From Escherichia phage vB_EcoM_G37-3, in sequence record MK327941.1: a DNA stretch of 64,000 nt; one strand, written 5' to 3'. The translations under genes were made by a program, and so were the position numbers. Under the pieces are notes generated by a model. It searched no databases. It was not told the DNA's origin and was given only the letters and a program-made list of their open reading frames with translations. Below, one piece after another: positions 7,277 through 28,612 of the stretch (positions are counted from its first letter, which is position 1; each line of letters begins with the position of its first letter).

Positions 7277-7305
7277 TATCTTACTACTCCCGTTTCATCA
7301 TGTCA
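7277..7305 (-). promoter_or_regulatory. Early promoter with palindrome around -10 (PeSL-like)
   Basis: Minus strand TTGACA, 17-nt spacer, TAAGAT within GGGAGTAG...ACTCCC inverted repeat. Confidence 0.55.
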
Positions 7306-7887
7306 AGCGTTAAATGACTTTTGGATCTCTTTCAGTTCAGCTACTTTATCGGCGCTATATTTTGCTTGATGTTCCATGCGCTTAAGCTCACCTTTGATAT
7401 AGGTTTCTAGCTTAGGTTTATTCTCAATCAGAAAATCTTTCAAGTCATCGGCATTTTTAAAGTATAGCTGATTATCAAAGCTAAAATCTTCCAGCGTCAA
7501 TGATACCAAAGAAGACTTCGCAAACAAGTTAATCAGATCTTCCAGAGATTCTTCTTTCTTAATTGGTTTCATTTCTTCAAACTGCTTTTTAGTGATGCGT
7601 TTAAAGTATTTTCGCTCGTTTGCAGCAATCAGAACAGATGCACCTTCATACTCATGAGTTTCTACCAGATACACACGCCCCATCGCATCAACAGTGAGAA
7701 CTTTAAAGCCGTTACAAAGCACGTCATACAAGAACTTATTATGTTGCGGACATCGTTTGATAAATTCTGCGACTGTTTCTGCACTACGGAAAGTATAGTA
7801 ACGACCTCGTTCAAAAACAGCGTCATTGGGTGACTTAACCGAATATACTTTGTATGTTTTCTGTACCATAATATAATCCTCTATCAT
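7303..7887 (-). CDS. Hypothetical protein, same paralog family (194 aa)
   Basis: Contains NERKYFKRITKKQFEEM and GFKVLTVD motifs; C-terminal LKDFL-x-KPKL motif as in ORF 680-1180. Confidence 0.55.
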   Translation of the reverse strand: MIEDYIMVQKTYKVYSVKSPNDAVFERGRYYTFRSAETVAEFIKRCPQHNKFLYDVLCNGFKVLTVDAMGRVYLVETHEYEGASVLIAANERKYFKRITKKQFEEMKPIKKEESLEDLINLFAKSSLVSLTLEDFSFDNQLYFKNADDLKDFLIENKPKLETYIKGELKRMEHQAKYSADKVAELKEIQKSFNA

Positions 7888-8187: not shown

Positions 8188-8216
8188 ATTTTACTACTCC
8201 CATTTCATGTTGTCAA
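8188..8216 (-). promoter_or_regulatory. Early promoter with palindrome around -10 (PeSL-like)
   Basis: Minus strand TTGACA, 17-nt spacer, TAAAAT within GGGAGTAG...ACTCCC inverted repeat. Confidence 0.55.
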
Positions 8217-18655: not shown

Positions 18656-19246
18656 TCAATAGCGTTTAGTCTTAAGAATGCCTTTACTCTTTAGATGGTT
18701 AGCCTTTTTTAGTACGTCATCAGCATAACCTAATCCGGCTTTATAGTTCCATCCAGCATTGTAAGAAGCTAGCGCGAGTCGGATATTACCGTTTCGAACA
18801 TCCAGCCAGTATGCTAACTCATCCATCGCGTAGAATGCAGAAACCTCGCGATTCATGATAAAGTTGATAGTCTGGCGATCACTCATTTTAACACCGCGCT
18901 TTGCATTTTTCGCTTTCACCGTTTTAAGGTAATTTTGAAATAATCCATAAGCATGATGATTTTTCTTTGGTGCTAAGTTTGCACCCGCGCTTGATTCTTG
19001 CCATGCGATACCCGCCAGGATGTGACCTAAACCCTTTCCGTTATAGCGAATATTCGGATGGTACTTTTTCAACTTACCGCTTTTCTCAAATTGCTCGCCG
19101 TATTGATAGGCGAAATGTAAATTATCTAGTTGGTGTGGTGTAAAGTTGTCTATCGGCGCTTTTTTGATCGGTGCGCTAGTCGATGCGTGTGTAGCACCAA
19201 CGGCTAGTGACAGACTCAATACTATCGCTTTTAGAACTTTTAACAT
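18656..19246 (-). CDS. Putative lytic transglycosylase-like protein with signal peptide
   Basis: Signal peptide then AWQESSAG...YGLFQ...SYNAGW motifs resembling the SLT/lysozyme-like fold. Confidence 0.55.
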   Translation of the reverse strand: MLKVLKAIVLSLSLAVGATHASTSAPIKKAPIDNFTPHQLDNLHFAYQYGEQFEKSGKLKKYHPNIRYNGKGLGHILAGIAWQESSAGANLAPKKNHHAYGLFQNYLKTVKAKNAKRGVKMSDRQTINFIMNREVSAFYAMDELAYWLDVRNGNIRLALASYNAGWNYKAGLGYADDVLKKANHLKSKGILKTKRY

Positions 19247-19332: not shown

Positions 19333-19755
19333 TTATTGGTCTACCTTCAAAACAACCGCCGACATTTTACCCGCCAGTCGTTTTGGATTCTCTATAATCA
19401 TTCGGCAGCATAGACCGTGATATGGCTTACCCTCTTCGATTAGATCTACTGTCATCCCGATCCACATGTTACCGTCAGTAATTTCTAATCGATTCGGTCG
19501 GTCTTCCATTTTCAGGAAGTCGAAGATCTCCGGCAAACGAGTTTCTATCTTATTGAATAGTTCCATTGTCTTATGTTCATCGATATGACGATCGGTTAGA
19601 CGGTCGATCATATGCGGACTAAAGCGAATGAAAATATACTCACCATAACCATCATTCAAGCACTTTTCTTTGATCTTCGCATTGGTTTTGCGCATTTCGG
19701 TTTCGAAGAATCTACGCAGCTTACTACGGCGAACATGTACGTTAATTGTTTCCAT
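19333..19755 (-). CDS. regB: Endoribonuclease RegB
   Basis: METINVHVRRSKLRRFFETEMRK...RLEITDGNMW...LCCRMIIENPKRLAGK matches T4 RegB; track ORF extends upstream to 19827. Confidence 0.8.
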   Translation of the reverse strand: METINVHVRRSKLRRFFETEMRKTNAKIKEKCLNDGYGEYIFIRFSPHMIDRLTDRHIDEHKTMELFNKIETRLPEIFDFLKMEDRPNRLEITDGNMWIGMTVDLIEEGKPYHGLCCRMIIENPKRLAGKMSAVVLKVDQ

Positions 19756-19759
19756 TTTA

Positions 19760-20095
19760 TTATCCTTTCTTAAACAAATTGCGAATCCAGTATACAAACG
19801 GGATTTCTTTAAACTTGAACTTGTCAATAGTTAATTCTTTAGTAGCAAGATGAATACCATAAGCATCATGTGTCACGATATGCCATTTTCTATAGTCCAA
19901 ATGTGAACAACCGTCTGGATCTAGGTTAATAAGAGTTTCTCGCTCACTAGGATTATTTTTCCACAATTTTGTAATAGGATCGCACATAATTCGACCTAGC
20001 GTACCATGAATAATCTCACAACGGTAAAGTTTTCCAGCAGTGAGATAGGCGCACCCGTCATAGTCTGTATAAACAAACACTTCTTTAACACTCAT
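19760..20095 (-). CDS. Hypothetical protein, GC(S/A)HLD small-protein family
   Basis: Probable start MSVKEVFVYTDYDGCAYL with RBS and PeSL-type promoter; motif DPDGCSHLD. Confidence 0.45.
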   Translation of the reverse strand: MSVKEVFVYTDYDGCAYLTAGKLYRCEIIHGTLGRIMCDPITKLWKNNPSERETLINLDPDGCSHLDYRKWHIVTHDAYGIHLATKELTIDKFKFKEIPFVYWIRNLFKKG

Positions 20096-20123
20096 TTTAA
20101 TACTCCTTTGTTTCGATGGGGGT

Positions 20124-20152
20124 ATATTACTACCCCCGTTTTGTTGTGTCAA
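20124..20152 (-). promoter_or_regulatory. Early promoter with palindrome around -10 (PeSL-like)
   Basis: Minus strand TTGACA, 17-nt spacer, TAATAT within GGGGGTAG...ACCCCC inverted repeat. Confidence 0.55.
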
Positions 20153-20413
20153 CTACTTTTTCAAGATTTTTTTAATTGCGTTCCAAAGACCTTTATTCTC
20201 AGGTTGTTTTGGTTCTTCGATCAGTGTCCAGGTTCGACCGTCTAAGTGTGCACAATTTTTAAGACAAATAAAAATCTGGTGTCCTTTATCATCACGGATA
20301 TAACCACTATTCGCAAATCTTTCATGTGGTGTATATTCATACAGTGTATTTGGTGTAATATACTTGCGGTTACTATAAGGTGTCATCACATACATCATGG
20401 TACTAACTCCCAT
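20153..20413 (-). CDS. Hypothetical protein, GC(S/A)HLD family
   Basis: Motif NCAHLDGRTW shared with neighbours. Confidence 0.4.
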   Translation of the reverse strand: MGVSTMMYVMTPYSNRKYITPNTLYEYTPHERFANSGYIRDDKGHQIFICLKNCAHLDGRTWTLIEEPKQPENKGLWNAIKKILKK

Positions 20414-20589
20414 TTATCACCGCGAAGATGAGAACATCCACCATCAAGAAGGATCGTAATACGAAACCCCGCATCATCTTCAATATACCCGATAGTCGGT
20501 GGATTTTCGTCGTCTCGTGTCGGGGTAAAATCATACATCTTTCCGGGCGTAATATCTTGTCCTTTATTACTATTGGTATAAACTTGCAT
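20395..20589 (-). CDS. Hypothetical protein, GC(S/A)HLD family
   Basis: Motif DGGCSHLRGDKW shared with neighbours. Confidence 0.4.
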   Translation of the reverse strand: MQVYTNSNKGQDITPGKMYDFTPTRDDENPPTIGYIEDDAGFRITILLDGGCSHLRGDKWELVP

Positions 20590-20610: not shown

Positions 20611-21309
20611 CTAACCACGGGTATAGTGTTCCAGAACAACGGTCAGATGAATATATTCTAATAAATCCTTCCAAAAGTCAACATCTGGTTCTTCCGGCAT
20701 ACCGTTTTTCTTTGCCTCTTCACGCGCGAGTTTAACACGCTCGTAGAGATCTTTCAATTCTTCCCGCACATTATCAAAGGTTCTTTCTCCTAACTTACAC
20801 GCTAAAATAGAAGAACGTCGCGCGAGCGGGAATTGTAGATCACCAGTTTGATAGATTTCAAGTAGCTGATAACCAACACGCAGAGCATGAGAAAGATCTT
20901 TCCAGTTACTGAAATACTTTTCAGATTTTGCTACCTGCTTTTTGAGATAACCAGACAAACCCCACATCCCAACATGATAGAATTTATCGCGATGTGTTCT
21001 GATGTATTCCCATTCTCTGGAGGATTCAATCAACATGTTACTAGGCGCGTGCACCATGTCAATAGCGCCGATATCGCCTTTACATGCCAGATTGATAAAC
21101 CGTTTTAGACTGAACATATTAACGTCAATATCGTCTTTGGTGTTCTTGATACCTTGACCGCTAGTGCTTTGGTCATAGTGTTCTTTCATCGATCCTAAGA
21201 TAATTTCTTTCGCAGTCGGAACAAAGATACCACGATAATCTTTATCTGAATTTTCAGTATCAAGGCCGTATAAGTGAGATCCGAAGACCATTTTAACCAT
21301 AGTATGCAT
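20611..21309 (-). CDS. Putative nucleotidyltransferase-fold protein
   Basis: N-terminal FGSHLYGLDTENSDKDYRGIF fits the G-S-x9-D-x-D nucleotidyltransferase signature. Confidence 0.45.
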   Translation of the reverse strand: MHTMVKMVFGSHLYGLDTENSDKDYRGIFVPTAKEIILGSMKEHYDQSTSGQGIKNTKDDIDVNMFSLKRFINLACKGDIGAIDMVHAPSNMLIESSREWEYIRTHRDKFYHVGMWGLSGYLKKQVAKSEKYFSNWKDLSHALRVGYQLLEIYQTGDLQFPLARRSSILACKLGERTFDNVREELKDLYERVKLAREEAKKNGMPEEPDVDFWKDLLEYIHLTVVLEHYTRG

Positions 21310-21327: not shown

Positions 21328-21921
21328 TTAAACGTATTCAGCGACAACATTGTGTTTAAAATTACCACTTCTTTTTGGATTTGGATTTTTCAATCGACTA
21401 TGTATTAAATTTTTGTTATATCCGGTTGCTTTAGACGCTTCTCCAATACTTTGATAAACAACACCATCAACACGAATCGGACGAGACTTATTAAACAGTT
21501 TATTCAATCCGGTATCATATGCATGGTTTTGGTTTTCTTGTCTTGTTGCGATCTCAAGATTCCAAACACAATTACAAGATTTTACCCCACTTTTATGATT
21601 AATTTCAAGCCCTTCACAATCACCTATAAAGTGTTCAGCGACTAGTCTATGAATATAGCGATATTTCTTAGTTTCCCCGTCATGCAAGCATACATTATAA
21701 TAACCATCACCAGCGCGTTTAGGTCGGAGTAGTTTACCTTTAACACGTTTTATAGTAGGGAACTCACCAAATTGATTTCGCTGGATAAAAGGAATCTCTC
21801 GGTCAAGTGAACGGATTCGACCATAGTTAGATACTTGATAAAACCCCCCATAGCCCTTAATCTGCTTCCATATCTCGGGGATTTCAACACCATCAATAAC
21901 AACAAGTTTAAGTTCTTCCAT
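21328..21921 (-). CDS. HNH homing endonuclease (Mob-like)
   Basis: YQVSNYGRIRS (NUMOD4-like) and HRLVAEHFIGDCEGLEINHKSGVKSCNCVWNLE (HNH) motifs. Confidence 0.75.
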   Translation of the reverse strand: MEELKLVVIDGVEIPEIWKQIKGYGGFYQVSNYGRIRSLDREIPFIQRNQFGEFPTIKRVKGKLLRPKRAGDGYYNVCLHDGETKKYRYIHRLVAEHFIGDCEGLEINHKSGVKSCNCVWNLEIATRQENQNHAYDTGLNKLFNKSRPIRVDGVVYQSIGEASKATGYNKNLIHSRLKNPNPKRSGNFKHNVVAEYV

Positions 21922-21933
21922 ATATCACCTCAT

Positions 21934-21962
21934 AAAAATAAAGCCAACCCTTTCGGATTGGC
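21934..21962 (-). terminator. Rho-independent terminator downstream of GrcA-like gene
   Basis: Minus strand hairpin AGCCAATCC-GAAA-GGGTTGGCT followed by T-rich tract. Confidence 0.55.
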
Positions 21963-21969
21963 TTGTGTA

Positions 21970-22386
21970 TTACATAGATTCCGTAAAGGTACGGGTGATA
22001 ATATCAAGTTGCTGTTCGCGTGTCAAGGCATTGAAGCGGGTAGCATAACCACTGATTCGAATTGTAAGCTGCGGGTACTTTTCAGGATTTTCTAACGCAT
22101 CAAGAAGAGTCTCCCGACGCAGTACGTTCGCGTTTAGGTGCATTCCCCCTTCGATAATCGGTTTACCCGCATCGATTTCGCAAATTCGAAAATTGGTCTT
22201 ATGCAGCGCCAGCGAATCGACGTCTTCTGCGGTGATCACATGGTCTTCTGCGAAAGTTTTACTAACAATTACTTTAGCGCCGATCAGTGCTTTCGGTTCG
22301 GATACCAGAATCATAGGCGCGAAGTGTCCACCAATAATAGTACCTTTATGCTCACCTTTCATGATTTGAATTGCTTTAAATTCCAT
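21970..22386 (-). CDS. grcA: Autonomous glycyl radical cofactor GrcA/YfiD-like protein
   Basis: C-terminus [57 protein letters not shown] is near-identical in pattern to E. coli GrcA glycyl radical motif (RVSGY). Confidence 0.8.
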
Positions 22387-28583: not shown

Positions 28584-28612
28584 ATCTTACTACCCCCGTT
28601 TCATGTTGTCAA
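28584..28612 (-). promoter_or_regulatory. Early promoter with palindrome around -10 (PeSL-like)
   Basis: Minus strand TTGACA, 17-nt spacer, TAAGAT within GGGGGTAG...ACCCCC inverted repeat. Confidence 0.55.

What the first reader, a model, noticed from the sequence alone, without database searches (positions are those of the whole stretch)
19760..20589. Three tandem paralogs sharing a GC(S/A)HLD motif
ORFs 19760-20095, 20153-20413 and 20395-20589 each contain a conserved segment (DPDGCSHLD, NCAHLDGRTW, DGGCSHLRGDKW) and similar preceding segments (YTDYDGCAYL, YTPHERFANSGYI, FTPTRDDENPPTIGYI). They form a local small-protein family just upstream of regB, with a PeSL-like promoter.
Basis: seen in the sequence. 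Interest (0 to 1): 0.35.

Follow-up and report, generated by a model that had tools for sequence, protein, structure and literature searches.

The report
Three tandem small beta-barrel phage genes
Three neighbouring small genes next to regB in this RB49-like coliphage are true, selected paralogs of a widespread but uncharacterised phage family of about 60-residue SH3-like beta-barrel proteins; this is real but fairly ordinary, and the conserved Cys-x-His is probably not a zinc site.

Summary
On the minus strand, ORF1 (19760-20095, 111 aa), ORF2 (20153-20398, 81 aa; the 20413 start is less likely) and ORF3 (20395-20589, 64 aa) are paralogs. Pairwise BLASTP E-values run from 1e-12 to 2e-3. A profile built without Krischvirus sequences scores them at 7e-15 to 1e-24.

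The window is a Krischvirus (RB49-like). The genes correspond to RB49p095-097, annotated as hypothetical, and all 58 Krischvirus records carry the array. dN/dS of 0.09-0.21 indicates purifying selection.

The family is not local. An exhaustive search found 356 clusters, mostly 58-75 aa, in unrelated phages (Drexlerviridae, 136-141 kb Vibrio phages, a Maribacter phage). It has no Pfam or NCBIfam model, only PHROG 6261 and 15978. Its hallmark is Y-x-T-x-G-K-x-Y, I-x-D-D-x-G, C-x-H-L, W.

AlphaFold models give an SH3-like barrel, with C-x-H in the 3-10 helix before the last strand. Cys and His are replaced independently by Ser and Tyr/Phe, so an obligate zinc site is unlikely.

The PeSL claim is confirmed, but that cassette lies between ORF2 and ORF1. 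T4 vs.3-5 are unrelated, and homology to Gp54 of Bas11 is not demonstrable.

Function is unknown. My best guess is a protein-binding early accessory module for host takeover or counter-defence.

The parts
20395..20589 (-). ORF3, 64 aa (equivalent to RB49p097). Minimal, acidic member of the family (pI 4.4, net charge -5): one SH3-like beta-barrel domain with TPGKMY, IEDDAG, CSHL and W60.
   Evidence: ORF. Family HMM E 3e-20. AF2 pLDDT 84 with a five-strand plus 3-10 helix topology. dN/dS 0.21. pI. A GGAG lies 9 nt upstream of the ATG.
20153..20398 (-). ORF2, 81 aa (equivalent to RB49p096; the alternative 86-aa start at 20413 is less likely). It is the family domain (TPNTLY, IRDDKG, CAHL, W) plus a basic amphipathic C-terminal helix, KGLWNAIKKILKK.
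   Evidence: phrog_15978 at 9e-61. Family HMM E 1e-24. Two allele classes in Krischvirus at 70-75% aa identity, one reading CAYLD; dN/dS 0.20. The tail has pI 10.3.
20395..20398 (-). ATGA overlap between the ORF3 stop (TGA) and the ORF2 start (ATG). This arrangement is typical of translational coupling.
   Evidence: Read directly from the sequence. GEC-3S, Brandy, SFHK24, W115 and PHB13 annotate the same 4-nt overlap.
20096..20152 (-). PeSL cassette (early promoter plus stem-loop) between ORF2 and ORF1. The -35 TTGACA is at 20152-20147 and the -10 TAATAT at 20129-20124. The hairpin GGGGGTA-gtaata-TACCCCC spans 20137-20118. The Shine-Dalgarno GGAG is at 20106-20103.
   Evidence: Promoter scan. 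Fold of -15.3 kcal/mol, z -3.35. Near-identical cassettes at 28584-28612, 7278-7306 and 8188-8216, with a compensatory stem change from GGGGG/CCCCC to GGGAG/CTCCC. GEC-3S annotates a promoter at this position. Definition in PMC2839356.
19760..20095 (-). ORF1, 111 aa (equivalent to RB49p095). This is the most divergent paralog. Its family domain (residues 5-76) keeps YLTAGKLY, CSHL and W71, lacks I-x-D-D-x-G, and has extra invariant Cys and His. A 35-aa tail ends in a basic amphipathic helix, IPFVYWIRNLFKKG. The stop codon lies inside the regB Shine-Dalgarno sequence (AAAGGATAATAAAATG).
   Evidence: phrog_6261 at 1e-37. Family HMM E 7e-15. AF2 core pLDDT about 90, tail below 55, helix at residues 99-109. 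dN/dS 0.09. Present in all 58 Krischvirus records at 95-100% identity.
19333..19755 (-). regB endoribonuclease. This is the downstream context gene, co-oriented and 4 nt after the ORF1 stop.
   Evidence: PF10715 at 1e-48. RB49 annotation. The GGAU Shine-Dalgarno of RB49 regB is noted in PMC3014915.
20611..21309 (-). nrdC.11-like nucleotidyltransferase (RlaP family). This is the upstream context gene. ORF3 starts 21 bp after its stop, so ORF3 and ORF2 are probably co-transcribed with it.
   Evidence: PF10127 at 3e-14 and phrog_388 at 2e-79. Sequence.

Best explanation
Shown:
- The three minus-strand ORFs are real protein-coding genes under purifying selection.
- They are ancient tandem duplicates of one small domain and are present in every sequenced Krischvirus.
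- The domain belongs to a widespread, uncharacterised family seen only in phage or viral records and metagenomic contigs here. Members are mostly free-standing proteins of 58-75 aa. The hallmark is Y-[IL]-T-x-G-K-x-Y, I-x-D-D-x-G, C-x-H-L, W-x-[VI]-[VI].
- The predicted fold is a five-stranded SH3-like beta-barrel. C-x-H-L forms the 3-10 helix before the last strand, and T-x-G-K-x-Y sits at the end of the long first loop.
- The three copies have diverged. ORF3 is the bare acidic domain. ORF2 and ORF1 add basic amphipathic C-terminal helices. ORF1 has also lost the D-D-x-G hairpin motif.
- ORF1 and regB sit behind a PeSL early promoter. ORF3 and ORF2 are coupled to each other through the ATGA overlap and follow nrdC.11.

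Inferred:
- The proteins are made early in infection.
- They act as small protein-binding modules, using the surface formed by the first loop and the 3-10 helix (the ligand face of SH3 domains) to bind a host or phage macromolecule. In other words they are non-essential host-takeover or counter-defence accessory proteins.
- The three variants recognise different partners or cell locations, or act together as an oligomer. Other phages fuse 2-3 copies of the domain into one polypeptide, which fits the last option.
- C-x-H is a structural or contact motif rather than an obligate metal site.
For: Paralogy and family membership:
- Pairwise and profile statistics.
- Exhaustive search: 356 representatives at E<=1e-3, mostly 58-75 aa.
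- Column conservation in 163 domains: T 97%, K 92%, Y 100%, D 93%, C 90%, H 91%, W 98%.

Real genes:
- dN/dS of 0.09, 0.20 and 0.21, against 0.06 for regB and 0.04 for nrdC.11.
- Shine-Dalgarno sequences and the ATGA overlap.
- All 58 Krischvirus records carry ORF1 and the ORF3/ORF2 pair.

Fold:
- AF2 pLDDT 84 for ORF3 and about 90 for the ORF1 core.

Accessory character:
- The family occurs amid clusters of small hypothetical genes in Krischvirus, Drexlerviridae, 136-141 kb Vibrio phages, 42-43 kb enterobacterial phages (Shigella phiSD1, Salmonella SGP009) and a Maribacter phage. No neighbour is conserved across unrelated phages.
- Nothing was found in 185,579 species genomes with two pattern scans.
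- ORF3 is frameshifted in phage FL04.
- ORF2 has two deeply diverged alleles, with between-class dS 0.89 against about 0.13 within each allele class and 0.12-0.15 mean dS in the neighbouring genes.
- It sits next to a PeSL, the cassette associated with shuffling of non-essential ORFans.

Recurrent multiplicity:
- Adjacent family pairs in Bas10 and W011D, and two copies 500 bp apart in L020.
- Two or three domains in one protein in P0022, P0027 and P0031.

Against nucleic-acid binding: the domain is acidic, with median pI 4.85 and median net charge -4.
Against: - No member of the family has an experimentally known function. No Pfam, NCBIfam or PDB sequence relative exists.
- The binding-module and counter-defence reading rests only on fold class, gene size, genomic setting and evolutionary behaviour.
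- I could not read model coordinates, so the clustering of conserved residues on one face is inferred from SH3 topology rather than measured.
- Purifying selection and fixation of all three genes across the genus argue that they are not freely dispensable.
- Early expression is inferred from a consensus promoter and was not measured.
Confidence: 0.55

Rival explanations
1. The conserved Cys-x-His is a metal (zinc) site. It could form within one domain together with additional Cys or His, or between two subunits as a C2H2 clasp. The proteins would then be small zinc-dependent factors.
For: - Cys and His are each about 90% conserved across the family.
- A third of members carry another Cys in the first loop, in the D-Y-D-G-C motif. 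ORF1 is one of them.
- ORF1 has 4 Cys and 5 His that are invariant across nine Krischvirus genomes.
Against: - Only two potential ligands per domain are conserved, and 48 of 163 domains contain a single Cys.
- Cys and His are lost independently, and to non-ligand residues: S-H in 14, C-Y in 6, C-F in 5 and C-W in 1 domain.
- The second ORF2 allele class in Krischvirus reads CAYLD and is under purifying selection.
- C-to-S and H-to-Y/F changes are what one expects of a small buried residue and an aromatic contact residue in the SH3 3-10 helix.
- A dimer clasp is not excluded.
Confidence: 0.15
2. The proteins are small nucleic-acid-binding barrels, like Sso7d/Cren7, KOW or Hfq-type folds. For example they could be RNA-binding helpers of the adjacent RegB endoribonuclease.
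For: - ORF1 ends 4 nt before regB, inside its Shine-Dalgarno sequence, and shares its promoter.
- ORF1 and ORF2 have basic tails.
- Some GenBank records label ORF1 'putative endoribonuclease'.
Against: - The domain is acidic: median pI 4.85, net charge -4, and ORF3 has pI 4.4.
- The family occurs in loci from Drexlerviridae, phiSD1 and Vibrio phages where no regB is annotated nearby.
- No neighbour is conserved across unrelated phages.
- The 'endoribonuclease' labels look like carry-over from the neighbouring gene. There is no similarity to RegB or to any nuclease family.
Confidence: 0.1
3. The family is a distant homolog of Gp54 of phage Bas11 (Pfam PF25180), the small beta-barrel that triggers the CapRelSJ46 defence protein.
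For: - A local motif match, G-x-x-I-x-I-x-L...[C/A]-x-H...W-x-V, spans 24 columns with hhalign E 0.003.
- Both are proteins of about 65 aa with unknown function, located in accessory regions. Bas10 carries both kinds.
Against: - hhalign probability is only 11%, and HMM E is 1.9.
- No PF25180 hit at E<=1 for the window proteins.
- Gp54 is described as a six-stranded barrel without the 3-10 helix (PMC11578894), whereas the models here have five strands plus a 3-10 helix.
- The N-terminal halves do not align.
Confidence: 0.1
4. The resemblance is chance or low-complexity similarity between spurious ORFs.
For: The ORFs are short, and ORF1 against ORF2 alone gives only E 2e-3.
Against: - Independent profile E-values of 7e-15 to 1e-24.
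- dN/dS of 0.09-0.21.
- Shine-Dalgarno sequences.
- Conservation in 58 genomes.
- Confident fold predictions.
Confidence: 0.01

Closest known systems
PHROG families phrog_6261 and phrog_15978 (unknown function); RB49p095, RB49p096 and RB49p097 hypothetical proteins
   Same: These are the same genes. ORF1 and ORF3 fall in phrog_6261 and ORF2 in phrog_15978, with cross-hits between the two families. The RB49 annotation lists the same three ORFs between regB and nrdC.11.
   Different: Nothing differs in sequence. The catalogues give no function, split the paralogs over two families, and do not describe the motif, the fold or the wider distribution.
SH3 and SH3-like small beta-barrel domains (for example the Nck2, p40phox and Grb2 SH3 domains, or the RecD SH3-like domain)
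Gp54 of phage Bas11 (PDB 9axb; Pfam PF25180), a trigger of the CapRelSJ46 toxin-antitoxin defence
   Different: Homology is not demonstrable: hhalign probability 11% and HMM E 1.9. Gp54 is six-stranded, whereas the models here have five strands plus a 3-10 helix. Bas10 encodes both Gp57 (its Gp54 homolog) and a true member of the present family, bas10_0081, as separate genes.
PeSL cassettes of RB49 and phi1 (Arbiol et al. 2010, PMC2839356)
   Same: The ORF2/ORF1 intergenic element has the upstream stop codon, a consensus sigma-70 promoter, a polyG/polyC stem-loop overlapping the -10 box, then a Shine-Dalgarno sequence and ATG. It recurs in the window with compensatory stem changes.
   Different: No difference was found. 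Promoter and terminator activity of this particular copy was not measured.
T4 vs.3, vs.4 and vs.5 (the three small genes between regB and vs.6 in T4)
   Same: They occupy the same genomic position and number three small early ORFs.
   Different: There is no sequence relationship. The family HMM finds nothing and hhalign probabilities are 0.1-1.8%.

Membership tests
Phage small-barrel family (phrog_6261/15978; hallmark YxTxGKxY, IxDDxG, CxHL, W) | Significant match to a family profile built without the query's close relatives | tested here: met
Phage small-barrel family (phrog_6261/15978; hallmark YxTxGKxY, IxDDxG, CxHL, W) | T-x-G-K-x-Y motif (T 97%, K 92%, Y 100% in the family) | tested here: met
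   ORF1 has TAGKLY and ORF3 has TPGKMY. ORF2 has TPNTLY (G to N, K to T) in this window and TPNKLY in the other allele class. T and Y are kept in all three.
Phage small-barrel family (phrog_6261/15978; hallmark YxTxGKxY, IxDDxG, CxHL, W) | I-x-D-D-x-G hairpin motif (I 91%, D 93%, G 88%) | tested here: inconclusive
   Present in ORF2 (IRDDKG) and ORF3 (IEDDAG). Absent in ORF1, which has LWKNNPSERE with an insertion at that point.
Phage small-barrel family (phrog_6261/15978; hallmark YxTxGKxY, IxDDxG, CxHL, W) | C-x-H-L followed by an invariant Trp 5-6 residues later | tested here: met
   CSHLDYRKW, CAHLDGRTW and CSHLRGDKW.
Phage small-barrel family (phrog_6261/15978; hallmark YxTxGKxY, IxDDxG, CxHL, W) | Small SH3-like beta-barrel fold | tested here: met
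   AF2 for ORF3 gives pLDDT 84. The ORF1 core has pLDDT about 90. BFVD models of family members superpose with TM 0.7-0.95. These are predictions only.
Canonical SH3 domain | Sequence match to SH3 profiles, or the ALYDY / WW / P-x-x-Y ligand-binding residues | tested here: not met
   No Pfam SH3 family at E<=1. Identity to the SH3 hits is 4-15%.
Canonical SH3 domain | Structural similarity | tested here: inconclusive
Gp54(Bas11) family, Pfam PF25180 | Profile match to PF25180 or to an alignment of Gp54 homologs | tested here: not met
   No PF25180 hit. hhalign probability is 11%, E 0.0026, over 24 columns. HMM E is 1.9.
Gp54(Bas11) family, Pfam PF25180 | Six-stranded barrel in which an extra strand replaces the 3-10 helix (PMC11578894) | tested here: not met
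   The models show five strands plus a 3-10 helix at C-x-H-L.
Structural zinc-binding domain | Three or four conserved Cys/His ligands that are kept or lost together | tested here: not met
   One Cys and one His are conserved. They are replaced independently by S, Y, F or W. 48 of 163 domains have a single Cys. ORF2 allele B reads CAYLD.
Structural zinc-binding domain | Bound metal | not testable with these tools
   This needs purified protein (ICP-MS or a PAR assay) or a structure.
PeSL cassette (Arbiol et al. 2010) | Consensus sigma-70 -35/-10 boxes in an intergenic region between a stop codon and a Shine-Dalgarno/ATG | tested here: met
   TAG, then TTGACA-17-TAATAT, then AAGGAG-N8-ATG.
PeSL cassette (Arbiol et al. 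2010) | Stable polyG/polyC stem-loop overlapping or adjoining the promoter | tested here: met
   GGGGGTA/TACCCCC, -15.3 kcal/mol, z -3.35; the -10 box lies in the loop and 3' arm.
PeSL cassette (Arbiol et al. 2010) | Repeated through the hyperplastic regions of the genome | tested here: met
   26 TTGACA-N15-19-TANNNT sites against 5.4 expected, 22 of them on the minus strand. Three further cassettes align over 76 nt with compensatory stem changes.
PeSL cassette (Arbiol et al. 2010) | Promoter and terminator activity | not testable with these tools
   This needs reporter assays or 5'-end mapping.
T4 vs.3 / vs.4 / vs.5 | Sequence homology to the T4 proteins at the same position | tested here: not met
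   No HMM hit at E<=10. hhalign probabilities are 0.2%, 1.8% and 0.1%.

The most novel reading that the evidence does not exclude
The family is a previously unrecognised class of phage counter-defence or host-takeover proteins. A roughly 60-residue barrel would use its conserved T/K/Y/C/H pocket to bind a host protein or small signalling molecule. Krischviruses would keep three specialised versions, two of them sent to the membrane by C-terminal amphipathic helices. The family might also be distantly related to Gp54 of Bas11 and, like it, be visible to bacterial immune sensors.
Probability: 0.15. Interest if true: 0.6.

Novelty: new member of a known kind. Interest (0 to 1): 0.25.

Why it matters
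As a gene-level finding it matters little. The three ORFs are already annotated as hypothetical proteins in 58 Krischvirus genomes and are clustered by PHROGs.

The useful by-product is a description of a family that would merit a domain-of-unknown-function entry. It has at least 356 clusters at 50% identity, was found only in phage or viral records and metagenomic contigs, and has no Pfam or NCBIfam model. It has a sharp motif and a confident SH3-like fold. It also shows a recurrent tendency to occur as adjacent paralogs or as 2-3 fused repeats.

Small, early, mobile phage genes of this type have repeatedly turned out to be inhibitors of host functions or of defence systems. The family is therefore a reasonable candidate for functional screens. 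A ready-made three-paralog test case exists in a tractable coliphage (RB49 or phi1).

Tried and rejected
- **Pfam, NCBIfam and PDB sequence searches.** These covered the three proteins, distant members and fusion proteins, and gave nothing meaningful. Hits to Pro_isomerase at E 0.16, to FosA at 19 bits against a cut-off of 275, to RpoN and to DPP4 are noise.
- **Homology to Gp54 of Bas11.** Tested with a single sequence and with a 13-sequence profile: probability 11%. Rejected as not demonstrable.
- **Homology to T4 vs.3-5.** Rejected.
- **Guilt by association.** All-against-all comparison of ORFs within 4 kb of family members in 16 loci found no shared neighbour outside closely related phages. 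One metagenomic copy sits next to a T7 Gp5.9-like gene. That is a single instance and I gave it no weight.
- **Domain fusions.** Partners are other uncharacterised phage modules. One weak Tad2-like match (E 8e-4, below the cut-off) is not interpretable.
- **Bacterial and archaeal genomes.** Two pattern-based scans of 185,579 species genomes found no relatives. Sensitivity is limited by the exact-pattern step. One earlier attempt failed for lack of a sufficiently conserved stretch.
- **The 83-aa ORF3/ORF2 hybrid (P0005).** It looked like a recombinational fusion of two paralogs, but it lies 44 bp from the end of a metagenomic contig and may be an assembly artefact.
- **Large proteins with many partial matches.** P0023, P0025, P0067 and P0082 match only 20-30 profile columns repeatedly. 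I did not examine them and treated them as probable repeat noise.
Full report
**What the window is.** The region is 97-98% identical to Krischvirus genomes: pEJ01, MIZ4, RB49, Phi1, JSE and GEC-3S. All genes here run on the minus strand. In order of transcription they are:
- vs.6 (21970-22386)
- an HNH homing endonuclease (21328-21921)
- an nrdC.11-like nucleotidyltransferase (20611-21309)
- ORF3 (20395-20589)
- ORF2 (20153-20398 or 20413)
- ORF1 (19760-20095)
- regB (19333-19755)
- vs.1 (18656-19246)

In RB49 the three ORFs are RB49p097, p096 and p095, all annotated as hypothetical.

**Check of the observation.** The quoted peptide segments are present.
- Pairwise BLASTP gives ORF2-ORF3 E 1e-12 (25 of 63 identical), ORF1-ORF3 3e-5 and ORF1-ORF2 2e-3.
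- All three match phrog_6261, and ORF2 also matches phrog_15978.
- For a test independent of these sequences, I built an HMM from 92 family members that are each less than 45% identical to any window protein. It scores ORF2 at 1e-24, ORF3 at 3e-20 and ORF1 at 7e-15, against a search space of 1354 ORFs.
- No other ORF in the 64 kb window matches.

The paralogy is therefore real. Three details need correcting.
- ORF2 most likely starts at 20398. That ATG overlaps the ORF3 stop as ATGA and has a GGGAG eight bases upstream. Most GenBank records use this 81-aa form.
- The ORF1 segment YTDYDGCAYL aligns with the N-termini of the other two proteins, not with their middle segments.
- ORF1 lacks the I-x-D-D-x-G motif.

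**Are they genes?** Across nine Krischvirus genomes dN/dS is 0.09 for ORF1, 0.20 for ORF2 and 0.21 for ORF3. The neighbours give 0.06 (regB) and 0.04 (nrdC.11). Each ORF has a Shine-Dalgarno sequence.
- All 58 Krischvirus records in the phage collection hold ORF1 at 95-100% identity.
- All 58 also hold ORF3 plus a second, weaker match, which is ORF2.
- The triplication therefore predates the radiation of the genus. The paralogs are only 30-40% identical to each other.

Two signs of plasticity stand out.
- ORF2 exists in two allele classes that are 70-75% identical. Between-class dS is 0.89, against about 0.13 within each class and 0.12-0.15 mean dS in the neighbouring genes.
- ORF3 is frameshifted in phage FL04.

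**The family.** A word-indexed search found almost only Krischvirus proteins. An exhaustive HMMER search of 1.84 billion cluster representatives found 356 at E<=1e-3 and 20 at E<=1e-10.

In 163 aligned domains the conserved positions are:
- Y-[IL]-T-x-G-K-x-Y, with T 97%, K 92% and Y 100%
- I-x-D-D-x-G, with I 91%, D 93% and G 88%
- C-x-H-L, with C 90%, H 91% and L 85%
- a Trp at 98%

There is no Pfam or NCBIfam model and no sequence relative in the PDB.

A tblastn search with the family consensus finds 140 phage records. They include Krischvirus, Vibrio phages of 136-141 kb, T1-like Drexlerviridae of E. coli and Klebsiella, 42-43 kb enterobacterial phages (Shigella phiSD1, Salmonella SGP009) and a Maribacter phage. 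Twelve more loci came from IMG/VR. Two pattern scans of 185,579 bacterial and archaeal species genomes found none.

In every locus examined the gene lies among small hypothetical genes. No neighbour is shared across unrelated phages.

Multiplicity recurs.
- Bas10 and W011D have a family member directly followed by a larger protein whose N-terminus is a divergent copy.
- One IMG/VR contig has two copies 500 bp apart.
- P0022, P0027 and P0031 contain two or three domains in one chain.

**Fold.** AlphaFold2 gives ORF3 a mean pLDDT of 84 with a shallow alignment. With 76 sequences, the ORF1 core reaches about 90.
- The topology is five strands. There is a long loop after strand 1, a tight hairpin at D-D-x-G, and a 3-10 helix formed by C-x-H-L before the last strand, which carries the Trp. 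This is the SH3 arrangement.
- BFVD returns only uncharacterised phage proteins, several of them family members.
- The ORF1 tail (residues 78-111) is predicted with low confidence, apart from a terminal helix at residues 99-109.

**The Cys/His question.** One Cys and one His per domain are conserved, and they are replaced independently:
- 132 domains have C and H
- 14 have S and H
- 6 have C and Y, 5 have C and F, and 1 has C and W
- 48 of the 163 domains contain a single Cys

Within Krischvirus, the second ORF2 allele class reads CAYLD and is under purifying selection. Ser in place of Cys, and Tyr or Phe in place of His, suit a small buried residue and an aromatic contact residue. They do not suit metal ligands. 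An obligate zinc site is therefore unlikely. An inter-subunit clasp, or a lineage-specific site in the Cys/His-rich ORF1, cannot be excluded without protein work.

**Differentiation of the three copies.** The family domain is generally acidic, with median pI 4.85 and median net charge -4.
- ORF3 is typical, with pI 4.4.
- ORF2 and ORF1 have near-neutral cores and basic C-terminal tails, KGLWNAIKKILKK and IPFVYWIRNLFKKG.
- From my own knowledge, these tails resemble the amphipathic membrane-targeting helices of MinD and FtsA. That resemblance is a lead, not a result.

**Expression signals.** The 57-bp gap between ORF2 and ORF1 contains, in order: the ORF2 stop, TTGACA-17-TAATAT, the hairpin GGGGGTA/TACCCCC (-15.3 kcal/mol, z -3.35), AAGGAG and the ATG.
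- This matches the published PeSL definition. That definition includes the common subclass in which the stem-loop overlaps the -10 box (PMC2839356).
- Cassettes at 28584-28612, 7278-7306 and 8188-8216 align with it over 76 nt. They show a compensatory stem change from GGGGG/CCCCC to GGGAG/CTCCC.
- GEC-3S annotates a promoter at this position.
- The cassette can drive ORF1 and regB. According to the paper, its hairpin may attenuate read-through from upstream.
- ORF3 starts 21 bp after nrdC.11, and ORF2 is coupled to ORF3, so these two belong to the upstream transcription unit.
- The ORF1 stop lies inside the regB Shine-Dalgarno sequence (AAAGGATAATAAAATG). This is the GGAU variant reported for RB49 (PMC3014915).

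**Comparison with known things.**
- T4 has three small genes at the same position, vs.3, vs.4 and vs.5. They are unrelated.
- The only experimentally studied look-alike is Gp54 of Bas11 (PDB 9axb, PF25180). It is a phage barrel of about 65 aa with unknown native function that activates CapRelSJ46 (PMC11578894).
  - It shares a local pattern, G-x-x-I-x-I-x-L...[C/A]-x-H...W-x-V.
  - However, profile-profile probability is 11%, HMM E is 1.9 and its topology is six-stranded.
  - Bas10 carries both its Gp54 homolog and a true family member as separate genes.
  - I treat this as a fold-level analogy only.

**Most likely function.**
- Shown: early-type promoter context, small size, acidic SH3-like barrel, detection only in phage or viral sequences, mobility among unrelated phages, no fixed neighbours, recurrent duplication or fusion, allelic dimorphism, and occasional loss.
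- Inferred: these are non-essential early accessory proteins that bind a host or phage macromolecule through the face formed by the first loop and the 3-10 helix. The three copies would be specialised, or would act together.
- I put about 0.9 on the identity and family statements, and about 0.35 on the host-takeover or counter-defence binding-module mechanism. The overall figure given is 0.55.
- Rivals: a metal site (0.15), nucleic-acid binding or a RegB helper (0.1), distant Gp54 homology (0.1) and chance (0.01).

**Verdict.** This is a correct observation of an ordinary kind. The genes are already annotated, and they belong to a catalogued but uncharacterised phage family. I rate the interest as low to moderate (0.25). 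The most useful output is the family definition, together with the evidence against a zinc site.

Noticed in passing
window 21328-21921 (-): An HNH homing endonuclease (NUMOD4 + HNH_3 + I-TevI-like DNA-binding domains) sits between the vs.6 terminator (21941-21964) and nrdC.11. RB49, Phi1 and GEC-3S have no gene in this gap, and their match stops at 97% of the query. pEJ01, MIZ4 and FL20 cover the query fully. JSE has a differently sized homing endonuclease at the same spot.
   Followed up: partly
window 20153-20398 (-); loci L011-L014: ORF2 is dimorphic within Krischvirus. The two allele classes are 70-75% identical in protein, with between-class dS 0.89. The neighbouring genes (ORF1, regB, nrdC.11) are 95-100% identical and ORF3 92-95%. 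This suggests allele replacement or very old balanced variation confined to one 250-bp gene.
   Followed up: partly
L015 (phage FL04) 1301-1481: ORF3 is frameshifted in FL04. Only the C-terminal half is still in frame, and the record annotates a 41-aa remnant. ORF3 is therefore dispensable for propagation, at least in the laboratory.
   Followed up: partly
window 7278-7306, 8188-8216, 28584-28612 and other minus-strand sites: There are 26 TTGACA-N15-19-TANNNT sites in the window against 5.4 expected, 22 of them on the minus strand. Several form near-identical PeSL cassettes with compensatory changes in the G/C stem.
   Followed up: partly
window 19753-19770 (-): The ORF1 stop codon (TAA at 19760-19762) lies inside the regB ribosome-binding site (AAAGGATAATAAAATG). 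The regB Shine-Dalgarno is the GGAU variant reported for RB49. Termination of ORF1 translation could influence regB initiation or RegB self-cleavage.
   Followed up: no
window 19760-19864 and 20153-20212 (-): ORF1 and ORF2, but not ORF3, end in basic amphipathic helices (IPFVYWIRNLFKKG and KGLWNAIKKILKK). Similar tails occur in P0024 and P0028. They resemble bacterial membrane-targeting sequences, which is a resemblance from memory and was not tested.
   Followed up: no
L003 2495-3159 (Bas10 / IsaakIselin) and L008 2477-3423 (W011D): T1-like Drexlerviridae carry a divergent family member (S-I-H-I in place of C-x-H-L). It is directly followed by a larger protein whose N-terminal 70 residues are another divergent copy (E 1e-4 to 2e-6). 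Adjacent paralogs of this domain have therefore arisen in an unrelated phage lineage as well.
   Followed up: partly
L031 45-296 (ENA metagenome scaffold): P0005 is an 83-aa hybrid: the N-terminal half of ORF3 joined to the C-terminal half of ORF2 (allele B), with the junction in the shared GYI-x-DD segment. It could be a recombinational deletion between the paralogs. However, it lies 44 bp from a contig end, so it may be an assembly artefact.
   Followed up: partly
GenBank records MT478991.1, MW748999.1, MK573636.1 and others: There is annotation drift. ORF1 is labelled 'putative endoribonuclease' in some records, apparently borrowed from regB. The nrdC.11 nucleotidyltransferase is labelled 'glutaredoxin' or 'thioredoxin' in others.
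   Followed up: no
P0016 (ENA, 111 aa): This protein starts with the first 28 residues of ORF1 and continues as an MraZ-like sequence (PF02381). It is almost certainly a chimeric metagenomic assembly.
   Followed up: no
L018 222-942 (Logan contig): A family member fused to a C-terminal region with a weak Tad2-like match lies directly downstream of a T7 Gp5.9-like gene (Gp5.9 is a RecBCD inhibitor). This is the only hint of an anti-defence neighbourhood, and it is a single instance.
   Followed up: no
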